This document shows positions 2,529 to 8,145 of a stretch of 8,465 nucleotides of DNA, one piece after another (within the stretch, counting starts at the first letter, position 1; every line of letters begins with the position of its first letter). The notes beneath the pieces were generated by a model. It was not told the DNA's origin. It saw only the letters and a list, made by a program, of their open reading frames with translations, and searched no databases. Origin of the DNA: a virus (Duplodnaviria > Heunggongvirae > Uroviricota > Caudoviricetes). Made by a program: the position numbers and the translations under genes. The stretch lies in the IMG/VR virus record IMGVR_UViG_2671180454_000010, one strand, 5' to 3'.

Positions 2529-2600
2529 GGAGGTTTGCTTATAACGTTAACGAAGTTTCAGGAAAACTTTCTTTAAAAGCTCTGTTTAAAAACTCTTAAA

Positions 2601-2627
2601 GAAAGCCCTAACTCATGATTAGGGCAA
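2601..2627 (-). terminator. GCCCUAA/UUAGGGC hairpin with U-rich tail (hairpin B, module 1)
   Basis: Stem GCCCTA (2605-2610) / TAGGGC (2620-2625) with a 9-nt loop; on the minus strand followed by UUUCUUUAAG. Immediately 3' of the conserved core. Confidence 0.35.
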
Positions 2628-2633
2628 AGCTGT

Positions 2634-2745
2634 AAAGGATTCAATAATGAATGAACAAAGACTTTTTGAGATAGCCTCTCAGACCAACCTGAAAGGCTAG
2701 GACGAAAAGCATTGCACCTTTCCAACTCAGAATATCCATTCATCG
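2634..2745 (-). repeat. conserved non-coding element, copy 1 (candidate structured RNA or leader)
   Basis: 112 bp aligning to 4792..4905 with 4 substitutions and one 2-nt indel. The two copies do not share a reading frame across the indel, so the conservation is not protein-coding. Lies upstream of the 236-aa ORF. Confidence 0.7.
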
Positions 2746-2755
2746 CGCGGGCTAG

Positions 2756-2788
<33 letters not shown>

Positions 2789-2832
2789 ATGAGGTGTACT
2801 GGCAATAGCGGACACTACCATTTGTTCTTTTT

Positions 2833-3651
2833 TTAAGCAGCCATCTGATGATATTTTTCCCTGAAGGCTGCCGGGGAGATATTCCCCAGACGAGAGTGAC
2901 GACGCTGACGATTGTAGAAAATCTCAATGTATTCCCGTATTACTGAGATGGCTTCATCCCGGTTATTAAAACGATAGTGGCTCAGGCTCTCATTTTTCAG
3001 CGTTCCCCAGAAGCTTTCCATCGGAGCGTTGTCGTAACAGTTACCTTTACGCGACATTGATGTTTTCAGACCAGACTGCTCCTGTATGACCCGGTAATCG
3101 TATGCGCAGTACTGTGAACCTCGATCAGAGTGGTGGATTAGCCCGGCAGGTGGGCGCTGGCTCCTGAGCGCCATAAACAGGGCTTTACCTGTCAGCTCTT
3201 TTGTCATGCGCTCTCCCATGGCGTAGCCGACAATTTCGCACGTATAAACATCTTTGATGCCAGCGAGGTACAACCATCCCTCCTGTGTGGCAACATACGT
3301 CAGGTCCGCCACCCAGACCTGATTTGGTGCTGTAGGAGCGAACGTCTGGTTCAGCAGATTTGGCGCAACTGGCAGATTGTGGTTCGAGTTCGTAGTCGCT
3401 CTGAACTTGCGTTTCTGCTTACAGCGTAGCCTTAGCTCCTTACGAAGACGTGCCAGTCGGTCACGACCAACGATGATGCCATTCTCTGCCAGCTCCGTCT
3501 GGAGCCGCCGGGTTCCATATGTTTCGCGAGTGCGGATATGTGCCACCTTAATCTCCAGTTTTAGCCGCTCATCACTTTGTTTTCTGTCTGAGGGTTCATG
3601 CTGTACCCAGTTGTAATAACCGCTCCTGGATACACCAAATACCTGACACAT
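2833..3651 (-). CDS. IS3-family transposase OrfB (catalytic DDE domain), expressed as OrfAB fusion
   Basis: 272 aa from the first ATG. The same frame is open upstream to the A7 slippery site and is -1 relative to orfA. Integrase-like catalytic region typical of IS3-family OrfB (…HSDRGSQYCAYDY…RKGNCYDNAPMESFWGTLK…). Confidence 0.85.
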   Translation of the reverse strand: MCQVFGVSRSGYYNWVQHEPSDRKQSDERLKLEIKVAHIRTRETYGTRRLQTELAENGIIVGRDRLARLRKELRLRCKQKRKFRATTNSNHNLPVAPNLLNQTFAPTAPNQVWVADLTYVATQEGWLYLAGIKDVYTCEIVGYAMGERMTKELTGKALFMALRSQRPPAGLIHHSDRGSQYCAYDYRVIQEQSGLKTSMSRKGNCYDNAPMESFWGTLKNESLSHYRFNNRDEAISVIREYIEIFYNRQRRHSRLGNISPAAFREKYHQMAA

Positions 3652-3686
3652 CGCTTCAATGGGAAATTGTTGTCGCCATTGTTCGA

Positions 3687-3989
3687 TTAACGCGTATTTT
3701 TCAGCGACTCCTGTGCAAAATACGCTGTTGCTTTTTTTAATATATCTCGCTCAAGGCGAGCTTCATTTAACGCCTTACGCAGTTGCAGAATTTCAGATTC
3801 CAGTTCAGCCACCGTGCGGGAACCAGGAGTACCGAGCCCTTTTCTGGCGGCGGTAACCCATTGTCCTAAAGTGCCTTCAGGAAGAGATAATCGGGAAGCG
3901 CCTTCACTGATCGAAAGTTGATTTTCAGGAACCGTTCTGACAGCTTCGGCTTTGAACTCTTTAGAGTAACGTTGGGTTTTTCTGCTCAT
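3687..3989 (-). CDS. IS3-family transposase OrfA (HTH plus leucine-zipper-like region), 100 aa
   Basis: ATG at 3987-3989 with AGGAGC upstream. C-terminus (…ILQLRKALNEARLERDILKKATAYFAQE…) typical of IS3-family OrfA; ends just after the frameshift hairpin. Confidence 0.85.
   Translation of the reverse strand: MSRKTQRYSKEFKAEAVRTVPENQLSISEGASRLSLPEGTLGQWVTAARKGLGTPGSRTVAELESEILQLRKALNEARLERDILKKATAYFAQESLKNTR
3692..3739 (-). promoter_or_regulatory. programmed -1 ribosomal frameshift site of the IS (A7G slippery run plus downstream hairpin)
   Basis: Minus-strand TTA AAA AAA G (complement of T-run 3732-3738) in the orfA frame; slipping -1 reads …SNSVFCTGVAEKYALIEQWRQQFPIEAMCQVFG… into OrfB. A 9-bp stem GCGUAUUUU/AAAAUACGC (3692-3725) starts about 6 nt downstream. 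Confidence 0.6.
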
Positions 3990-5572: not shown

Positions 5573-5992
5573 TTAATTGTCTTTATTAATCAATGGCTTA
5601 ATGTAGAAATACTGTCTCCGTGAAATACCATATTTTTCTGTAATGTATCGCTGAGATTGACCAGCATTTATGGCCTGAGTGATATCATCACGGTTATAGC
5701 GGTTACCACGGGATTTATATTTGTCACCATCCACATCTTCTGAGGTATTGAAGTCTTCAATCAGCTTAATTGCATCGTGAAGGTCATCTTCTGAGGCATA
5801 ATCGAAGGTATGGATAATCTCAAAATCACCAGTATCTGCTGGTGCATTCTTCCATCTGGAGAAGCGGGATTTTAATTGCTGGTGTGTGAAGGGTTCAGCA
5901 TTACGAGTTAAATCTTTCCATGTTCCGTTATTCTCACGGACAAGGTGACCTCTATGGCGATAAAACGCATGATAATCAAATGTGCATAGCAT
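5573..5992 (-). CDS. hypothetical protein with C-terminal HTH-like segment, 139 aa
   Basis: ATG at 5990-5992 overlaps the stop of the upstream RHH ORF (TAATG). C-terminal …DDITQAINAGQSQRYITEKYGISRRQYFYIK… looks like a helix-turn-helix. Confidence 0.55.
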   Translation of the reverse strand: MLCTFDYHAFYRHRGHLVRENNGTWKDLTRNAEPFTHQQLKSRFSRWKNAPADTGDFEIIHTFDYASEDDLHDAIKLIEDFNTSEDVDGDKYKSRGNRYNRDDITQAINAGQSQRYITEKYGISRRQYFYIKPLINKDN

Positions 5993-6282
5993 TAAACCCC
6001 CAGCTTATCCGCCAGTTGATGAACCTTGGCACTCAACACCTGAATCATTGAGCAACCTGCCACTGCGGACTGTGCTTTGAGTAGTTCCAGTTGGCCCGTT
6101 GTGATTCTGATGGCCTTAGAACCCTCTGCAACGCCCTTGATAGCGTCAAACGGTGTAAGGGCTATGTGTTCCTTCAAAATCTCACCAACAAGTGCTGTGT
6201 GGCTCATGGCTGGGTATTTGTCTTTGATTGCTGCCAGTCTGGAATATGCCTCTGGCAAAAGGCGTGTAACTGTGTGTCTCAT
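5992..6282 (-). CDS. ribbon-helix-helix-like DNA-binding protein (apparent tandem RHH), 96 aa
   Basis: ATG at 6280-6282 with AAGGAAAA upstream. Two strand-helix-helix-like halves (TVTRLLPEAYSRLAAIKDKY… and IRITTGQLELLKAQSAVAG…). First gene of a minus-strand operon leaving a divergent promoter region. Confidence 0.5.
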   Translation of the reverse strand: MRHTVTRLLPEAYSRLAAIKDKYPAMSHTALVGEILKEHIALTPFDAIKGVAEGSKAIRITTGQLELLKAQSAVAGCSMIQVLSAKVHQLADKLGV

Positions 6283-6340
6283 TAAATTTTCCTTCTTAAA
6301 ATCTTTGACTTATAACTAACTTTAACATATTTATAACATA

Positions 6341-6369
6341 TTGTCAACAACTCATTTACATGTTAATAT
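6341..6369 (+). promoter_or_regulatory. candidate sigma70 promoter for the 61-aa ORF, in a back-to-back promoter region
   Basis: TTGTCA (6341-6346), 17-nt spacer, TAATAT (6364-6369). The complementary strand reads TTGACA at 6347-6342, a perfect -35 for the divergent RHH operon. Direct repeats TAACATATT at 6323-6331 and 6334-6342. Confidence 0.45.
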
Positions 6370-6420
6370 GGTTGTAGGGGGCTGATACAGGTCATTCCCT
6401 TTGATAAATAAGGGGAATTA

Positions 6421-6606
6421 ATGGGCTTTCTTGAAACAATTGCTGAATCTCACAGATTCGCAAGCTTAGGTTGCTTTGTGTTTCTGGTGCTTCTTGTGTA
6501 TCAGCTTTTAAAAATGATTATCGCCAGAAGTACACGATTCAATTTCAGCATTAAGCTTTTCAAATATGAAATCACAATTACGATTGATGATGGTAAAACA
6601 AACTAA
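6421..6606 (+). CDS. small single-pass membrane protein, 61 aa
   Basis: ATG at 6421 with AAGGGG 5 nt upstream; hydrophobic segment LGCFVFLVLLVYQLLKMII. Stop overlaps the stop of the convergent minus-strand ORF 6603..6893. Confidence 0.45.
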   Translation: MGFLETIAESHRFASLGCFVFLVLLVYQLLKMIIARSTRFNFSIKLFKYEITITIDDGKTN

Positions 6607-6893
6607 CGTTTTGTGATAATATTGGTGGCCTTTAAGTTGCTGGGGTCACCGTCTTTTAATCGTAGCTGGTGGATTGAATTCCAGATATCAAAATGATACA
6701 GCACTGCAAACCTCAAAGCGTCAATCTTTAAATCTGTCACACCATCGTAAAAGAAATAACCCCTCCCTTCTTTCTTTGGTCTAATCCGGTAAACTTCCCC
6801 GTGAGTATCCTTCATAAGATGACCTTCACGAGAAATGCTGTAACGCTTTAACAGGTAATCTTTGTATCTCTTTTCACCGTGATATTCTTTCAT
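6603..6893 (-). CDS. small protein with degenerate HNH/AP2-like fold (candidate DNA-binding module), 96 aa
   Basis: ATG at 6891-6893 with GGAGGAA upstream; start overlaps the upstream stop (TAATG). Pattern …EGRGYFFYDG…ALRFAVLYHF…RLKDGDPSNLKATN resembles HNH_3/AP2-type domains, but the expected catalytic His-x-Asp-Gly-Asn region reads LKDGD. Confidence 0.4.
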   Translation of the reverse strand: MKEYHGEKRYKDYLLKRYSISREGHLMKDTHGEVYRIRPKKEGRGYFFYDGVTDLKIDALRFAVLYHFDIWNSIHQLRLKDGDPSNLKATNIITKR

Positions 6894-7267
6894 TACTTAA
6901 TTCCTCCACCGGCAAAATACATCTTCGGTTTAATTTTTTGCTTCTTGTCATCCTGAGTTTGTTTCTTTTTCGGTGAAAGATAATAATCATCTTCACTGTC
7001 ATCGAATGGGTCTAAACCCGATACTTTGTTCTTTTGTCTTGCAAGCTCGAATCTCTTTTTCTTCTCTGCCCTCTTAATGGCTTTTTCACGTTCATCCTCT
7101 TCATCATCGAAGGGGTCCAACTCATCATCAGTGGCGGGGCACTGTGTGTTTTTATGGTCACTATCAACACTCACATCAGTGATTTCTCTGTCTTGTTTAG
7201 AAGTCTTTTTAGAGCTTACTTCAAGGTCAGATTCATTCATAGAGAGAAAATCATTTAATTCATCCAA
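6893..7267 (-). CDS. acidic protein with duplicated LDPFDD(E/S)EDD motif, start uncertain
   Basis: Frame is open from about 7375 to 6893 with no ATG before 7238-7240; the ORF track starts at TTG 7265-7267; neither has a clear Shine-Dalgarno. Two near-identical acidic motifs (DELDPFDDEEDE, SGLDPFDDSEDD) and a Lys-rich stretch. Confidence 0.45.
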   Translation of the reverse strand: MDELNDFLSMNESDLEVSSKKTSKQDREITDVSVDSDHKNTQCPATDDELDPFDDEEDEREKAIKRAEKKKRFELARQKNKVSGLDPFDDSEDDYYLSPKKKQTQDDKKQKIKPKMYFAGGGIK

Positions 7268-7334
7268 AGAAAGAAAGTCATCTTCTTTAATATCATCATT
7301 AAGTCCAGTCTCTTTATTCTTATCTGTAATATTA

Positions 7335-7366
7335 TTATCTAATGTTTTATCTAATAACTTATCTAA
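7335..7366 (-). repeat. tandem TTATCTAA repeats (3 copies, 12-bp period)
   Basis: TTATCTAA at 7335-7342, 7347-7354 and 7359-7366, plus a degenerate TTATCTG at 7320-7326; AT-rich, next to the TGACA-N3-TGTCA cluster. Confidence 0.5.
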
Positions 7367-7379
7367 ACTCTAACACGGG

Positions 7380-7437
7380 TGACATTTTGTCACTACCCCC
7401 ATGACATTTTGTCACTGGTAGTGGTGTCATTTTGTCT
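7380..7437 (-). promoter_or_regulatory. cluster of three TGACA-N3-TGTCA inverted-repeat sites (operator or iteron-like)
   Basis: TGACAtttTGTCA at 7380-7392 and 7402-7414, degenerate TGTCAtttTGTCT at 7425-7437; centre spacing 22-23 bp. Flanking inverted repeat CACTACC (7391-7397) / GGTAGTG (7417-7423). Overlaps the stop codon of the adjacent HTH gene. Confidence 0.55.
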
Positions 7438-7782
7438 TACTGAGGCTGCAACTTCCTGTGATGTAGGTCTTACAAGTAATTCCGGCTTATCATCCAGTGT
7501 GAATACACGATAAGTGCTTTGACGCCCCTGATTCTTTTGCACCTGAATTAAACCGTGTTTCTCAAGTGTCTCAATGGCTCTGATTGCTGTTCTCTTTGAT
7601 ACACCAGCCATATAAGCGAGATGGTCAATACTTGGTGAATATGATTTGTATTTCTCTTCATAGAAGTCACAGCTATGGACCATGACCATATAAATCAATC
7701 TTGCTGCTGCGTTAATTTCTTCTGAAAGTTGAGAGATTCGCACATCAAATTTATAAAACTGATTTGGGTTATATTTAGACAT
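7393..7782 (-). CDS. winged-helix/HTH DNA-binding protein, 129 aa
   Basis: ATG at 7780-7782 with GAGGTAA upstream. …LAYMAGVSKRTAIRAIETLEKHGLIQVQKNQGRQSTYRV… reads as helix-turn-helix plus wing. Family not identifiable by eye; could be a repressor or a replication-initiator N-domain. Confidence 0.6.
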   Translation of the reverse strand: MSKYNPNQFYKFDVRISQLSEEINAAARLIYMVMVHSCDFYEEKYKSYSPSIDHLAYMAGVSKRTAIRAIETLEKHGLIQVQKNQGRQSTYRVFTLDDKPELLVRPTSQEVAASVRQNDTTTSDKMSWG

Positions 7783-8145
7783 TCATAAATTACCTCATAC
7801 GTGAAAAGGCCAACCGGATAAAACCGATTAGCCTGTGTGATTAAAATATCTGGGGGATTGATGGACTGATAAAGAAGTCCATGCCTGAAACAGTACGATG
7901 ATTAAAACGCTGAGGTATACCCTGAATGAGAGGTTAATATACGCCAACCATCTGACACCTCCCCAAGTGTTACCACTTCAAGACATGAACTTTTTTATCA
8001 GCCCATATAGAAACTATAACAGATGCGATTATAAATTGCAACAATTATTTCACAGAATGATTACTGATTGGTCATTTATTGTTCACAGGGATACTTCTTA
8101 ATATCTGAATCACCTATCTTGTAAATGACCATATTTATGAGAATT

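What the first reader, a model, noticed from the sequence alone, without database searches (positions are those of the whole stretch)
6341..6606. Small membrane protein gene with Shine-Dalgarno-sequestering hairpin and convergent stop overlap
The 61-aa ORF has a good promoter (TTGTCA-17-TAATAT) and a leader in which CCCUU (6397-6401) pairs with AAGGG (6410-6414), occluding the Shine-Dalgarno, while an upstream G-run (6377-6381) could compete for the same C-run. Its stop overlaps the stop of the convergent HNH-like ORF, so the two transcripts are antisense at their 3' ends. Small hydrophobic proteins under this kind of translational control include type I toxins and holin-like peptides.
Basis: partly seen in the sequence, partly recalled or inferred. 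Interest (0 to 1): 0.4.

Follow-up and report, generated by a model that had tools for sequence, protein, structure and literature searches.

The report
Small membrane-protein gene of a phage-like island
The 61-codon reading frame is a real, conserved gene for a tiny single-pass membrane protein, with its own promoter and a ribosome-site-hiding hairpin, found only in an ~11 kb phage-like island of Escherichia, Shigella and Citrobacter; its function is untested, and it is not a demonstrable type I toxin.

Summary
The sequence features are at the stated coordinates. The ORF 6421-6606 is a real gene: dN/dS is 0.07-0.44, and it is intact in 14 of 14 evaluable, independently fetched loci. It encodes a helix plus beta-hairpin protein with predicted N-out/C-in topology. 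The family is an orphan (4 clusters at 50% identity among 1.84 billion proteins) and is confined to a serine-recombinase, tape-measure/Dit-carrying island.

The extended -10 promoter holds in all 10 distinct leader sequences. Pairing of the Shine-Dalgarno (or of the AUG) with an upstream UUCC tract also recurs, although the arm sequences differ (combined p about 2e-4).

- The G-run competitor is not conserved.
- The neighbour cannot be shown to be HNH.
- The stop-stop overlap is derived. Every other clade has a terminator hairpin (GCTGGTG...CACCAGC plus a T run in most) after the stop, and the window's clade has lost it.

No antisense promoter or known RNA family was found, so type I toxin membership is unsupported. 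Leader plus ORF form an allelic cassette: 39-47% identity between classes, with flanks of 90-100% in several recombinant loci.

My best reading is a translation-throttled membrane effector used in phage conflict. An invariant 5' motif, GGCTGATAC, is shared with the replication-operon promoter and its structured leader RNA, and remains unexplained.

The parts
6341..6369 (+). P_small: -35 TTGTCA (6341-6346), 17-nt spacer, TGn-extended -10 TAATAT (6364-6369). The predicted start is near A6376.
   Evidence: 9/12 match, TG present. The extended -10 is conserved in all 10 distinct leader sequences. The TSS is inferred, not mapped.
6380..6388 (+). Near-invariant motif GGCTGATAC at about +3..+12 of the predicted mRNA. 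It is shared with the replication-operon promoter.
   Evidence: identical in about 40 loci, with one substitution in L032. In the window there are 6 matches at <=1 mismatch against 1.08 expected.
6394..6418 (+). Anti-SD/SD hairpin: ATTCCCTTT (6394-6402), loop, AAGGGGAAT (6410-6418). The SD is GGGG, 5 nt before the ATG.
   Evidence: (I9). The SD core is paired in the MFE fold of 9 of 10 distinct leader sequences, and the AUG is paired in the tenth.
6421..6606 (+). 61-aa ORF: periplasm-facing N tail with the conserved ESHRF motif, TM helix (about residues 16-34), basic cytoplasmic beta-hairpin (39-56).
   Evidence: homologues; dN/dS; AF2 model; hydropathy and charges. Annotated in RefSeq as WP_000506009.1, hypothetical protein.
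6607..6613 (+). CGTTTTG, the remnant tail of the intrinsic terminator that follows the stop codon in the other clades. The hairpin itself is missing here.
   Evidence: (L025 GCTGGTGATTCGTCACCAGC GTTTTTCAAT).
6603..6893 (-). It is of unknown family and is an optional gene of the element.
   Evidence: Absent in the L004, L009, L012, L016 and L018 types.
6319..6347 (-). P_div: -35 TTGACA (6347-6342, overlapping the -35 of P_small back to back), -10 TAAAGT (6324-6319) with TG.
   Evidence: 10/12. The same arrangement appears in L003, L025 and L018.
6324..6341 (.). Two direct repeats AACATAT (6324-6330, 6335-6341), 11 bp apart: a candidate operator between or over the two promoters.
   Evidence: Read. 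TAACAT repeats are kept in L001, L003 and L018. Binding is inferred.
5992..6282 (-). Divergent 96-aa tandem ribbon-helix-helix (TraY-like) DNA-binding protein, the probable regulator of the promoter pair.
   Evidence: AF2 gives beta-alpha-alpha twice. Foldseek top hits are chains of the F-plasmid relaxosome, DndE, single-chain Arc and ParG, at prob up to 0.96 and E 0.04. The family is confined to the element.
7995..8041 (-). P_rep: TTGCAA-17-TATAGT (8041-8013), then GGCTGATAA (8003-7995) 9 nt downstream. It is convergent with P_small.

Best explanation
SHOWN. The region 6341-6606 is a self-contained gene for a 58-67-aa single-pass inner-membrane protein. It is a core component of an ~11 kb serine-recombinase, phage-like (satellite-like) island.

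PREDICTED FROM SEQUENCE. It is transcribed against all neighbouring genes from an extended -10 sigma-70 promoter. That promoter stands back to back with the promoter of a tandem-RHH regulator. In the ancestral state transcription ends at an intrinsic terminator right after the stop codon. The ~45-nt leader folds so that a UUCC-containing tract pairs with the Shine-Dalgarno (or with the AUG in one clade), which should keep translation low.

INFERRED.
- The protein inserts N-out/C-in, with the conserved ESHRF motif at the periplasmic face and a basic beta-hairpin in the cytoplasm.
- It acts at the membrane as a dose-sensitive effector in phage-element-host conflict. That would be superinfection exclusion or abortive-infection-like activity, or membrane perturbation during induction of the element.
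- Leader plus ORF behave as an allelic specificity cassette that is swapped by recombination.
- Expression is probably co-controlled with the replication operon through the shared GGCTGATA site at +3..+12, and through RHH operator repeats.

It is not a classical type I toxin-antitoxin pair.
For: Real gene:
- dN/dS is 0.07-0.44. L006 vs L007 differ by 6 synonymous and 0 non-synonymous changes.
- The ORF is intact in 14 of 14 evaluable loci that were fetched through the neighbouring RHH gene.

Membrane protein:
- AF2 gives a helix at 4-36 and a beta-hairpin at 39-46/49-56.
- The best 19-aa hydropathy window scores KD 2.15-2.62 (KD = Kyte-Doolittle hydropathy) in six allele representatives. N flanks are net <=0 and C flanks +2 to +6.

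Own transcription unit:
- Promoter.
- Terminator hairpin in all non-window clades.

SD occlusion:
-. The Fisher combination over 7 hairpin types gives p about 2e-4.
- The arm sequences differ between clades while pairing is kept: UUCCCUU:AAGGGGAA, UUUCCUUU:AAAGGAAA, CCCCU:AGGGG, CCGUUCC:GGAAUGG, UUCCUU:AAGGAA.

Allelic cassette:
- 41-56% nucleotide identity over 6420-6600 in L014 and L017, whose flanks are 81-100% identical.
- Six allele classes at 39-47% protein identity.

Shared control site.

RHH regulator.

Orphan family restricted to the element:
- 4 clusters at 50% identity among 1.84 billion proteins.
- Nothing in sequenced phages or plasmids.
Against: - No expression, localisation or phenotype data exist.
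- There is no homology to any exclusion or defence family. PADLOC, PHROGs, Pfam and NCBIfam are empty, and BFVD gives no fold match.
- SD occlusion is only marginal against shuffled controls in several leader types: 20-45/300 for the L004, L009 and L012 types, and not significant for L007 and L018.
- The gene is universal in the element, not accessory, which fits a core life-cycle role as well as a defence role.
- Allele identity does not track the tape-measure protein (rho -0.15, n=7), so there is no sign of a TMP-specific partner.
- GC is only slightly below the flanks (34% vs 37-40%).
Confidence: 0.42

Rival explanations
1. Type I toxin. The small hydrophobic peptide kills by membrane damage and is held off by an RNA antitoxin. 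The antitoxin would be either the convergent transcript overlapping its 3' end, or a trans RNA (the ~200-nt replication-leader RNA, whose 3' arm UUUAUCAGUCC is complementary to the mRNA 5' end).
For: - A small TM peptide with an SD-sequestering leader, which is a hallmark listed for type I systems (abstracts of PMC8594479 and PMC6733600).
- 9-bp complementarity between the invariant 5' motif and the conserved rep-leader 3' arm.
- In the window clade the terminator is lost, so 3' overlap with the convergent mRNA is likely.
Against: - No antisense promoter in or next to the ORF in four clades, and no Rfam toxin or antitoxin family.
- The ancestral arrangement has a terminator between the convergent genes.
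- The leader is only ~45 nt with one modest hairpin, unlike the long metastable leaders of known systems.
- The rep-leader 3' arm is itself locked in a ~25-bp helix.
- There are one to two copies per genome, always inside the element.
- The 61-aa protein has a structured beta-hairpin tail.
Confidence: 0.13
2. Holin-like or lysis-timing protein, comparable in role to small membrane proteins with which satellites or phages set the time of lysis. It would be made together with replication functions after induction.
For: - One TM helix with a highly charged C tail.
- Translation control by a hairpin at the start site.
- A promoter that shares the +3..+12 site with the replication promoter, which suggests co-induction.
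- Natural TM-length polymorphism of 58/61/64/67 aa through LVL repeats.
Against: - No endolysin, spanin or any lysis gene is recognised in the element (Pfam/PHROGs of window ORFs; Pfam labels).
- The gene sits in the regulatory/replication region, in antisense orientation.
- There is no dual-start motif and no hit to any holin family.
Confidence: 0.12
3. The protein is a structural or regulatory accessory of the element's own cycle. For example it could be a membrane tether or anti-regulator acting on the RHH or replication proteins, or the transcript could mainly serve transcriptional interference against read-through from the convergent replication operon.
For: - The gene is universally present as a core gene.
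- It occupies the position divergent from the regulator and convergent with P_rep.
- There is a weak correlation of allele identity with the adjacent RHH (rho 0.32).
Against: - Strong purifying selection on the peptide argues against a purely RNA or interference role.
- The extreme allelic divergence, against the 72-99% conserved RHH, argues against tight co-evolution with it. The correlation can be explained by linkage.
Confidence: 0.15

Closest known systems
Moron-type prophage genes for small inner-membrane exclusion proteins (HK97 gp15, P22 SieA)
   Same: It is an independent transcription unit with its own promoter and terminator inside a phage-derived element, and it encodes a small inner-membrane protein. 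It shows mosaic exchange between related elements. The definition and the gp15 function are taken from PMC3594210.
   Different: - There is no sequence relation. gp15 belongs to the YebO family (per PMC3594210), and Pfam finds nothing here.
- The gene is present in every evaluable element examined, so it is core rather than 'more on'.
- GC content barely deviates from the flanks.
- Expression in the repressed state and any exclusion activity are untested.
Type I toxin-antitoxin systems (e.g. hok/Sok, tisB/IstR-1, timPR, B. subtilis prophage txpA/RatA)
   Same: A small hydrophobic peptide, an anti-SD sequence occluding the ribosome-binding site, and location on a prophage-like element. The class definition comes from the abstract of PMC8594479.
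   Different: - No antitoxin RNA gene is detectable.
- The leader is short and simple.
- A terminator insulates the gene from the convergent transcript in most clades.
- Toxicity is unknown.
Lambda S-type holin translational control (sdi stem-loop) and satellite lysis modulators such as PLE LidI (both from my own knowledge, not checked in papers here)
   Same: A small membrane protein whose start region is embedded in a stem-loop, encoded by a phage-derived or satellite-like element.
   Different: There is no lysis cassette, no dual start and no homology. The genomic position is in the regulatory/replication module.
F-plasmid TraY and other tandem ribbon-helix-helix proteins (for the divergent neighbour)
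   Same: Two beta-alpha-alpha repeats in one chain. The top Foldseek hits are chains of the F relaxosome structures 9f0y/9f0x, which I take to be TraY from my own knowledge, at prob up to 0.96.
   Different: E-values are weak (0.04), identity is 12-20%, and the model pLDDT is 70. There is no relaxase context. Here the protein sits at a divergent promoter pair, so a repressor role is inferred.

Membership tests
Type I toxin-antitoxin system | Small (<~60 aa) hydrophobic, membrane-targeted toxin ORF | tested here: met
   61 aa. One TM segment with KD (Kyte-Doolittle hydropathy) 2.38, and AF2 helix 4-36.
Type I toxin-antitoxin system | A non-coding antisense RNA antitoxin gene (cis-overlapping or adjacent) with its own promoter | tested here: not met
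   There is no minus-strand promoter-like site in or next to the ORF in the window, L003, L025 or L018. There is no Rfam hit at E<=10. This test is computational only, so a weak or non-sigma-70 promoter cannot be excluded.
Type I toxin-antitoxin system | Toxin mRNA folded so that the SD is sequestered | tested here: met
   The SD core is paired in the MFE fold of 9 of 10 distinct leader sequences. In the window P(unpaired) is 0.01, against 0.45 in shuffles. The hairpin is modest and the leader is short.
Type I toxin-antitoxin system | Toxicity of the peptide on expression, relieved by the RNA | not testable with these tools
   This needs controlled expression in vivo.
Moron (independent prophage transcription unit) | Own promoter and own terminator | tested here: met
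   A conserved promoter. A terminator hairpin after the stop in all clades except the window's own. In the window itself the terminator is lost.
Moron (independent prophage transcription unit) | An addition that is present in some and absent from other related genomes | tested here: not met
   All 14 evaluable loci fetched through the RHH gene carry an intact copy. No element without it was seen.
Moron (independent prophage transcription unit) | Base composition that deviates from the surrounding genes, and horizontal exchange | tested here: inconclusive
   GC is 34.4% against 37-40% in most flanking genes, which is a small deviation. Cassette-like recombination is clear.
Moron (independent prophage transcription unit) | Expression from the repressed element | not testable with these tools
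   This needs RNA-seq or a reporter in a carrier strain.
Holin | At least one TM domain and a charged, basic C terminus | tested here: met
Holin | Membership of a lysis cassette (adjacent endolysin or spanin), or a match to a holin family | tested here: not met
   There is no lysis gene among the window ORFs or among the Pfam-labelled genes of related loci. There is no holin family hit.
YebO / HK97 gp15 superinfection-exclusion family | Sequence membership (Pfam YebO profile) | tested here: not met
   Pfam gives 0 families even at E<=10.
HNH endonuclease (the convergent 96-aa neighbour) | A match to an HNH-type profile or to a solved HNH structure | tested here: not met
   Pfam at E<=10, NCBIfam, PHROGs and PADLOC give none. 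PDB phmmer and profile searches give only chance hits.
HNH endonuclease (the convergent 96-aa neighbour) | A beta-beta-alpha-metal fold with catalytic His/Asn residues | not tested
Alignment A6 keeps H67, N86 and N91 invariant, so a degenerate HNH-like fold cannot be excluded.

The most novel reading that the evidence does not exclude
The near-invariant 5' end of the small-protein mRNA (GGGGCUGAUAC) mimics the 5' arm of the closing helix of a conserved, structured ~160-nt leader RNA of the island's replication operon. That leader ends at an attenuator-like terminator. Either the leader RNA's 3' arm (UUUAUCAGUCC) acts in trans on the membrane-protein mRNA, or the mRNA acts as a decoy that opens the leader. 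In either case an RNA-RNA switch would couple production of a membrane-active peptide to the replication decision of a phage-satellite-like element. This would be a new kind of type I-like toxin control tied to a replication attenuator.
Probability: 0.1. Interest if true: 0.75.

Novelty: new member of a known kind. Interest (0 to 1): 0.4.

Why it matters
Small membrane proteins of prophages and satellites are routinely missed. Here gene callers annotated the ORF in only 4 of 14 loci. Where such proteins have been studied, they often decide phage exclusion, lysis timing or host killing.

This one is the only gene transcribed against the flow in a compact, uncharacterised island that carries just a tape-measure and a Dit tail gene. 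Its deeply diverged alleles sit in near-identical backbones, which points to a specificity function under conflict-type selection. It also gives a clean natural series of anti-SD/SD hairpin variants for testing translational occlusion.

The shared 5' motif links it to a conserved structured RNA in front of the replication gene. If that link is functional, it would be the more interesting discovery.

Tried and rejected
- **Profile searches.** The small protein and nine neighbours were run against Pfam, PHROGs, PADLOC and NCBIfam. Nothing was found for the small protein, the RHH or the 'HNH-like' ORF.
- **PDB sequence and profile searches.** Chance hits only.
- **Foldseek of the small-protein model against BFVD.** No hit below E=1. 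The afdb50 library was unavailable.
- **Rfam.** The whole window and two sub-regions scanned at permissive thresholds gave only sub-threshold noise.
- **Long-range 5'-ORF pairing as a conserved hok-like fold-back.** It is real in the window allele (11 bp, -15.7 kcal/mol, 0-3/200 shuffles) but absent in all other alleles. I rejected it as a general feature.
- **Upstream G-run as a competitor for the C-run.** It is not conserved and is not used in the MFE folds.
- **A formal column-wise covariation count on the MAFFT leader alignment (A5).** I abandoned it because the hairpin arms are in different registers in different clades. Per-sequence folding with shuffled controls was used instead. A broader -13..+3 window gave no significance outside the window clade.
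- **Co-evolution of the allele with the tape-measure or replication protein.** None was found.
- **Mini-ORFs.** A leaderless M-G-stop at the motif is not conserved in the P_small leaders of the window and L004 types. A five-codon ORF in the rep leader is absent in type-2 leaders.
- **Literature.** Searches for the element found no description of it.

Full report
**1. What is in the sequence**

- -35 TTGTCA at 6341-6346, a 17-nt spacer, and -10 TAATAT at 6364-6369 preceded by TG (an extended -10).
- GGGGG at 6377-6381.
- An inverted repeat, ATTCCCTTT (6394-6402) / AAGGGGAAT (6410-6418), that buries the GGGG Shine-Dalgarno (I9; MFE fold).
- ATG at 6421 and TAA at 6604-6606.
- The convergent ORF 6603..6893 ends with TAG at 6605-6603, so the two stop codons share two bases.

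A promoter scan also finds a minus-strand promoter, TTGACA (6347-6342)-17-TAAAGT (10/12 match). Its -35 overlaps the -35 of the small gene back to back.

**2. Context**

The window is part of an ~11 kb island found on the chromosome of 150 of 5,426 complete E. coli genomes. It has no match in sequenced phages or plasmids.

In E. coli 2011C-4315 the island splits yecE (DUF72). Its genes, as annotated there and in related loci, are:
- a large serine recombinase;
- a Dit-like baseplate protein;
- a tape-measure protein;
- several small ORFs;
- a 96-aa protein;
- the small ORF, the only gene on the opposite strand apart from the recombinases at the ends of the island;
- an optional 96-aa ORF;
- an HTH_36 replication-initiator-like protein;
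- a Dam-type methylase;
- a small resolvase.

The same island sits at other sites in E. albertii and Citrobacter.

The window's copy is decayed. It carries an IS3-family insertion (about 2573-3989), and its replication gene appears split into 7393..7782 and 6893..7267. Near-identical proteins are recorded from Shigella sonnei.

**3. The ORF is a real gene**

A word-indexed search and a profile search found 33 clusters, all 50-82 aa, from Escherichia, Shigella and Citrobacter. An exhaustive HMMER pass over 1.84 billion representatives found only four clusters at 50% identity.

Six allele classes exist: GFLET (window), SFIES, DLLKL, two HDFFT classes, and ENMLR. They are 39-47% identical to the window protein. 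All keep I-x-ESHRF-x-x-L/C, a hydrophobic stretch, a basic segment and an alternating beta-like tail.

Nei-Gojobori estimates give dN/dS of 0.07-0.44 wherever dS is not saturated. Examples are window vs L006 at 0.14, window vs L009 at 0.13, and L006 vs L007 with 6 synonymous and 0 non-synonymous changes.

Loci fetched independently through the neighbouring RHH protein carry an intact copy in 14 of 14 evaluable cases. Gene callers had annotated only four of them. RefSeq sometimes lists the gene as WP_000506009.1, hypothetical protein.

**4. The protein**

AlphaFold2 on the family alignment gives a helix at 4-36 followed by a beta-hairpin at 39-46/49-56 (mean pLDDT 70.7). In six allele representatives the best 19-residue window has a Kyte-Doolittle (KD) hydropathy mean of 2.15-2.62. 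The N flank is net 0 or -1, and the first 15 residues after the TM carry +2 to +6. By the positive-inside rule this predicts N-out/C-in, which is an inference.

Natural variants of 58, 61, 64 and 67 aa differ by LVL units inside the TM helix. No family in Pfam, PHROGs, PADLOC or NCBIfam matches, and there is no fold match in BFVD.

**5. Promoter, leader, terminator**

Across the 10 distinct leader sequences (6-7 hairpin types), a TGn-extended -10 lies 7-10 nt upstream of a near-invariant GGCTGATAC. This holds even where the upstream DNA is unrelated, as in L009, L012 and L018.

Each leader has a UUCC-containing tract that pairs with the SD in the MFE fold:

| Leader type | Anti-SD : SD pairing |
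|---|---|
| window | UUCCCUU : AAGGGGAA |
| L003 | UUUCCUUU : AAAGGAAA |
| L004 | CCCCU : AGGGG |
| L009 | CCGUUCC : GGAAUGG |
| L012 | UUCCUU : AAGGAA |
| L018 | an 8-bp helix covers the AUG instead |

Against shuffles of the upstream leader, SD occlusion scores as follows:

| Leader type | Shuffles at or below the observed value |
|---|---|
| window | 1/300 |
| L003 | 0/300 |
| L004, L009, L012 | 20-45/300 |
| L007, L018 | not significant |

Fisher's combination over the seven hairpin types gives p about 2e-4. So the hairpin is a recurring, modest translational brake.

The proposed competing G-run varies (GGGGG, GGGG, GGG, TGG) and is not used that way in the folds. I regard it as unsupported.

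Downstream, every clade except the window's has a hairpin GCTGGTG(N4-9)CACCAGC immediately after the stop codon. L003-type loci have the variant GCTGGTG...ACCGGC. The hairpin is followed by a T run in the E. coli and Citrobacter types. The scan calls it a terminator in L025 and L003.

The window clade (window, L001, L002, L016) has lost the hairpin and keeps only CGTTTT. That loss is why its stop codon abuts the convergent ORF. Elsewhere the gap is 9-27 nt. The stop-stop overlap is therefore a derived accident of one clade, not a conserved regulatory design.

**6. Neighbours**

*The divergent 96-aa protein.* It is predicted as two beta-alpha-alpha repeats. Its best structural matches are chains of the F-plasmid relaxosome (TraY is a tandem RHH protein), DndE, single-chain Arc and ParG. 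It is a tandem ribbon-helix-helix DNA binder.

Two AACATAT repeats 11 bp apart (6324-6330, 6335-6341) lie across the promoter pair. TAACAT repeats recur in divergent loci. They are the obvious candidate operator, but this is inferred.

*The convergent 96-aa ORF.* It has no HNH or other profile or PDB-sequence support. It is missing from several island variants. The fold was not tested.

**7. Allelic cassette**

Pairwise identity profiles show that leader plus ORF (about 6390-6600) can be 41-56% identical in loci whose flanks are 81-100% identical to the window, namely L014 and L017. The left boundary falls just after GGCTGATACAGG.

Such deep allelic divergence in a shuffled backbone is typical of specificity or conflict determinants. 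Allele identity does not track the tape-measure protein (rho -0.15, n=7) or the replication protein (rho 0.04). It tracks the adjacent RHH only weakly (rho 0.32), and linkage can explain that.

**8. The shared motif and the replication leader (outside the finding, but linked to it)**

GGCTGATA(C/A) occurs a second time on the minus strand at 8003-7995. It lies 9 nt downstream of TTGCAA-17-TATAGT (8041-8013), the promoter of the replication operon.

That promoter's ~225-nt leader is a structured RNA. RNAalifold pairs the first ~25 nt, including the motif, with window 7884-7861. It reports 8 compensatory pairs in total, 5 of them in this closing helix, between two leader types. A terminator-like hairpin follows at 7833-7804, before the gene. 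Rfam has no family for it.

The 3' arm, UUUAUCAGUCC, could also pair with the 5' end of the small-gene mRNA (9 bp with one G.U). The simplest reading is a shared DNA operator at +3..+12 of two convergent promoters, with the RNA complement following from it. A trans RNA interaction cannot be excluded and is my 'novel case'.

**9. Mechanism and comparison**

*Shown:* a conserved small membrane-protein gene.

*Predicted from sequence and supported by conservation:* its own promoter, an SD-occluding leader and (ancestrally) a terminator. The same applies to the regulator next door and to the allelic cassette behaviour.

*Inferred:* low, controlled expression of a dose-sensitive membrane effector that serves the island in conflicts with phages or the host. 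This could be exclusion, abortive-infection-like activity, or induction-phase membrane perturbation.

The gene works like a moron-type membrane protein such as HK97 gp15 (PMC3594210). It is not a YebO/gp15 homologue, and it is core rather than accessory.

It resembles type I toxins in peptide type and SD occlusion (PMC8594479, PMC6733600). It fails the defining test of an antitoxin RNA gene. It lacks the lysis cassette expected of a holin.

**10. Verdict**

This is a new, orphan member of a known kind: small prophage- or satellite-encoded membrane proteins under translational occlusion. Interest in the finding itself is moderate. The linked replication-leader RNA and the shared motif deserve their own follow-up.

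Noticed in passing
window 8041-7995 (-) and 6380-6388 (+): Two convergent promoters, P_small and the replication-operon promoter TTGCAA-17-TATAGT, carry the same near-invariant GGCTGATA(C/A) at about +3..+12. It is conserved in about 40 loci, with one substitution in L032. It could be a shared operator or a shared RNA 5' element.
   Followed up: partly
window 8006-7800 (- strand): The leader of the HTH_36 replication gene is a conserved structured RNA. A ~25-bp closing helix (8006-7982 with 7884-7861) and inner helices have 8 compensatory pairs between two leader types. A terminator-like hairpin follows at 7833-7804. There is no Rfam family. It may be an attenuator or a ~200-nt sRNA.
   Followed up: partly
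whole window; L001 5106-16470; L006, L010: The host element is an ~11 kb island with large and small serine recombinases, a Dam-type methylase and an HTH_36 initiator-like gene. Its only recognised virion genes are a tape-measure protein and a Dit-like protein. It is inserted in yecE, next to cls (YCII/YciY neighbours), or near putA. It is absent from sequenced phages and plasmids. It looks like an undescribed satellite-like element.
   Followed up: partly
window 5992-6282 (-), repeats 6324-6341: The divergent neighbour is a single-chain tandem ribbon-helix-helix protein (TraY-like). Two AACATAT repeats 11 bp apart lie over the back-to-back promoters.
   Followed up: partly
window 6478-6500 (TM-coding part of the ORF); proteins P0002-P0005: Natural length variants of 58, 61, 64 and 67 aa differ by in-frame LVL units inside the TM helix, so there is repeat-mediated TM-length polymorphism. 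One HDFFT-class variant (P0027, 62 aa) has a different 4-residue in-frame duplication in the TM region.
   Followed up: no
window 6381-6389 and 6497-6505: In the window-type allele only, the mRNA 5' end (GCUGAUACA) is perfectly complementary to UGUAUCAGC inside the ORF. The extended duplex is 11 bp at -15.7 kcal/mol (0-3 of 200 shuffles reach it). It is absent in the other allele classes.
   Followed up: yes
window 2573-3989, 6893-7782: The window's copy of the island is decaying. It has an IS3-family insertion (orfA 3687..3989, orfB 2833..3651). The replication gene appears split into two ORFs (7393..7782 and 6893..7267), where relatives have one ORF of 255-330 aa.
   Followed up: no
L028-L042 (RHH-anchored loci): Automatic gene callers annotated the small ORF in only 4 of 14 loci where it is intact. 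This illustrates how the family is under-annotated.
   Followed up: yes
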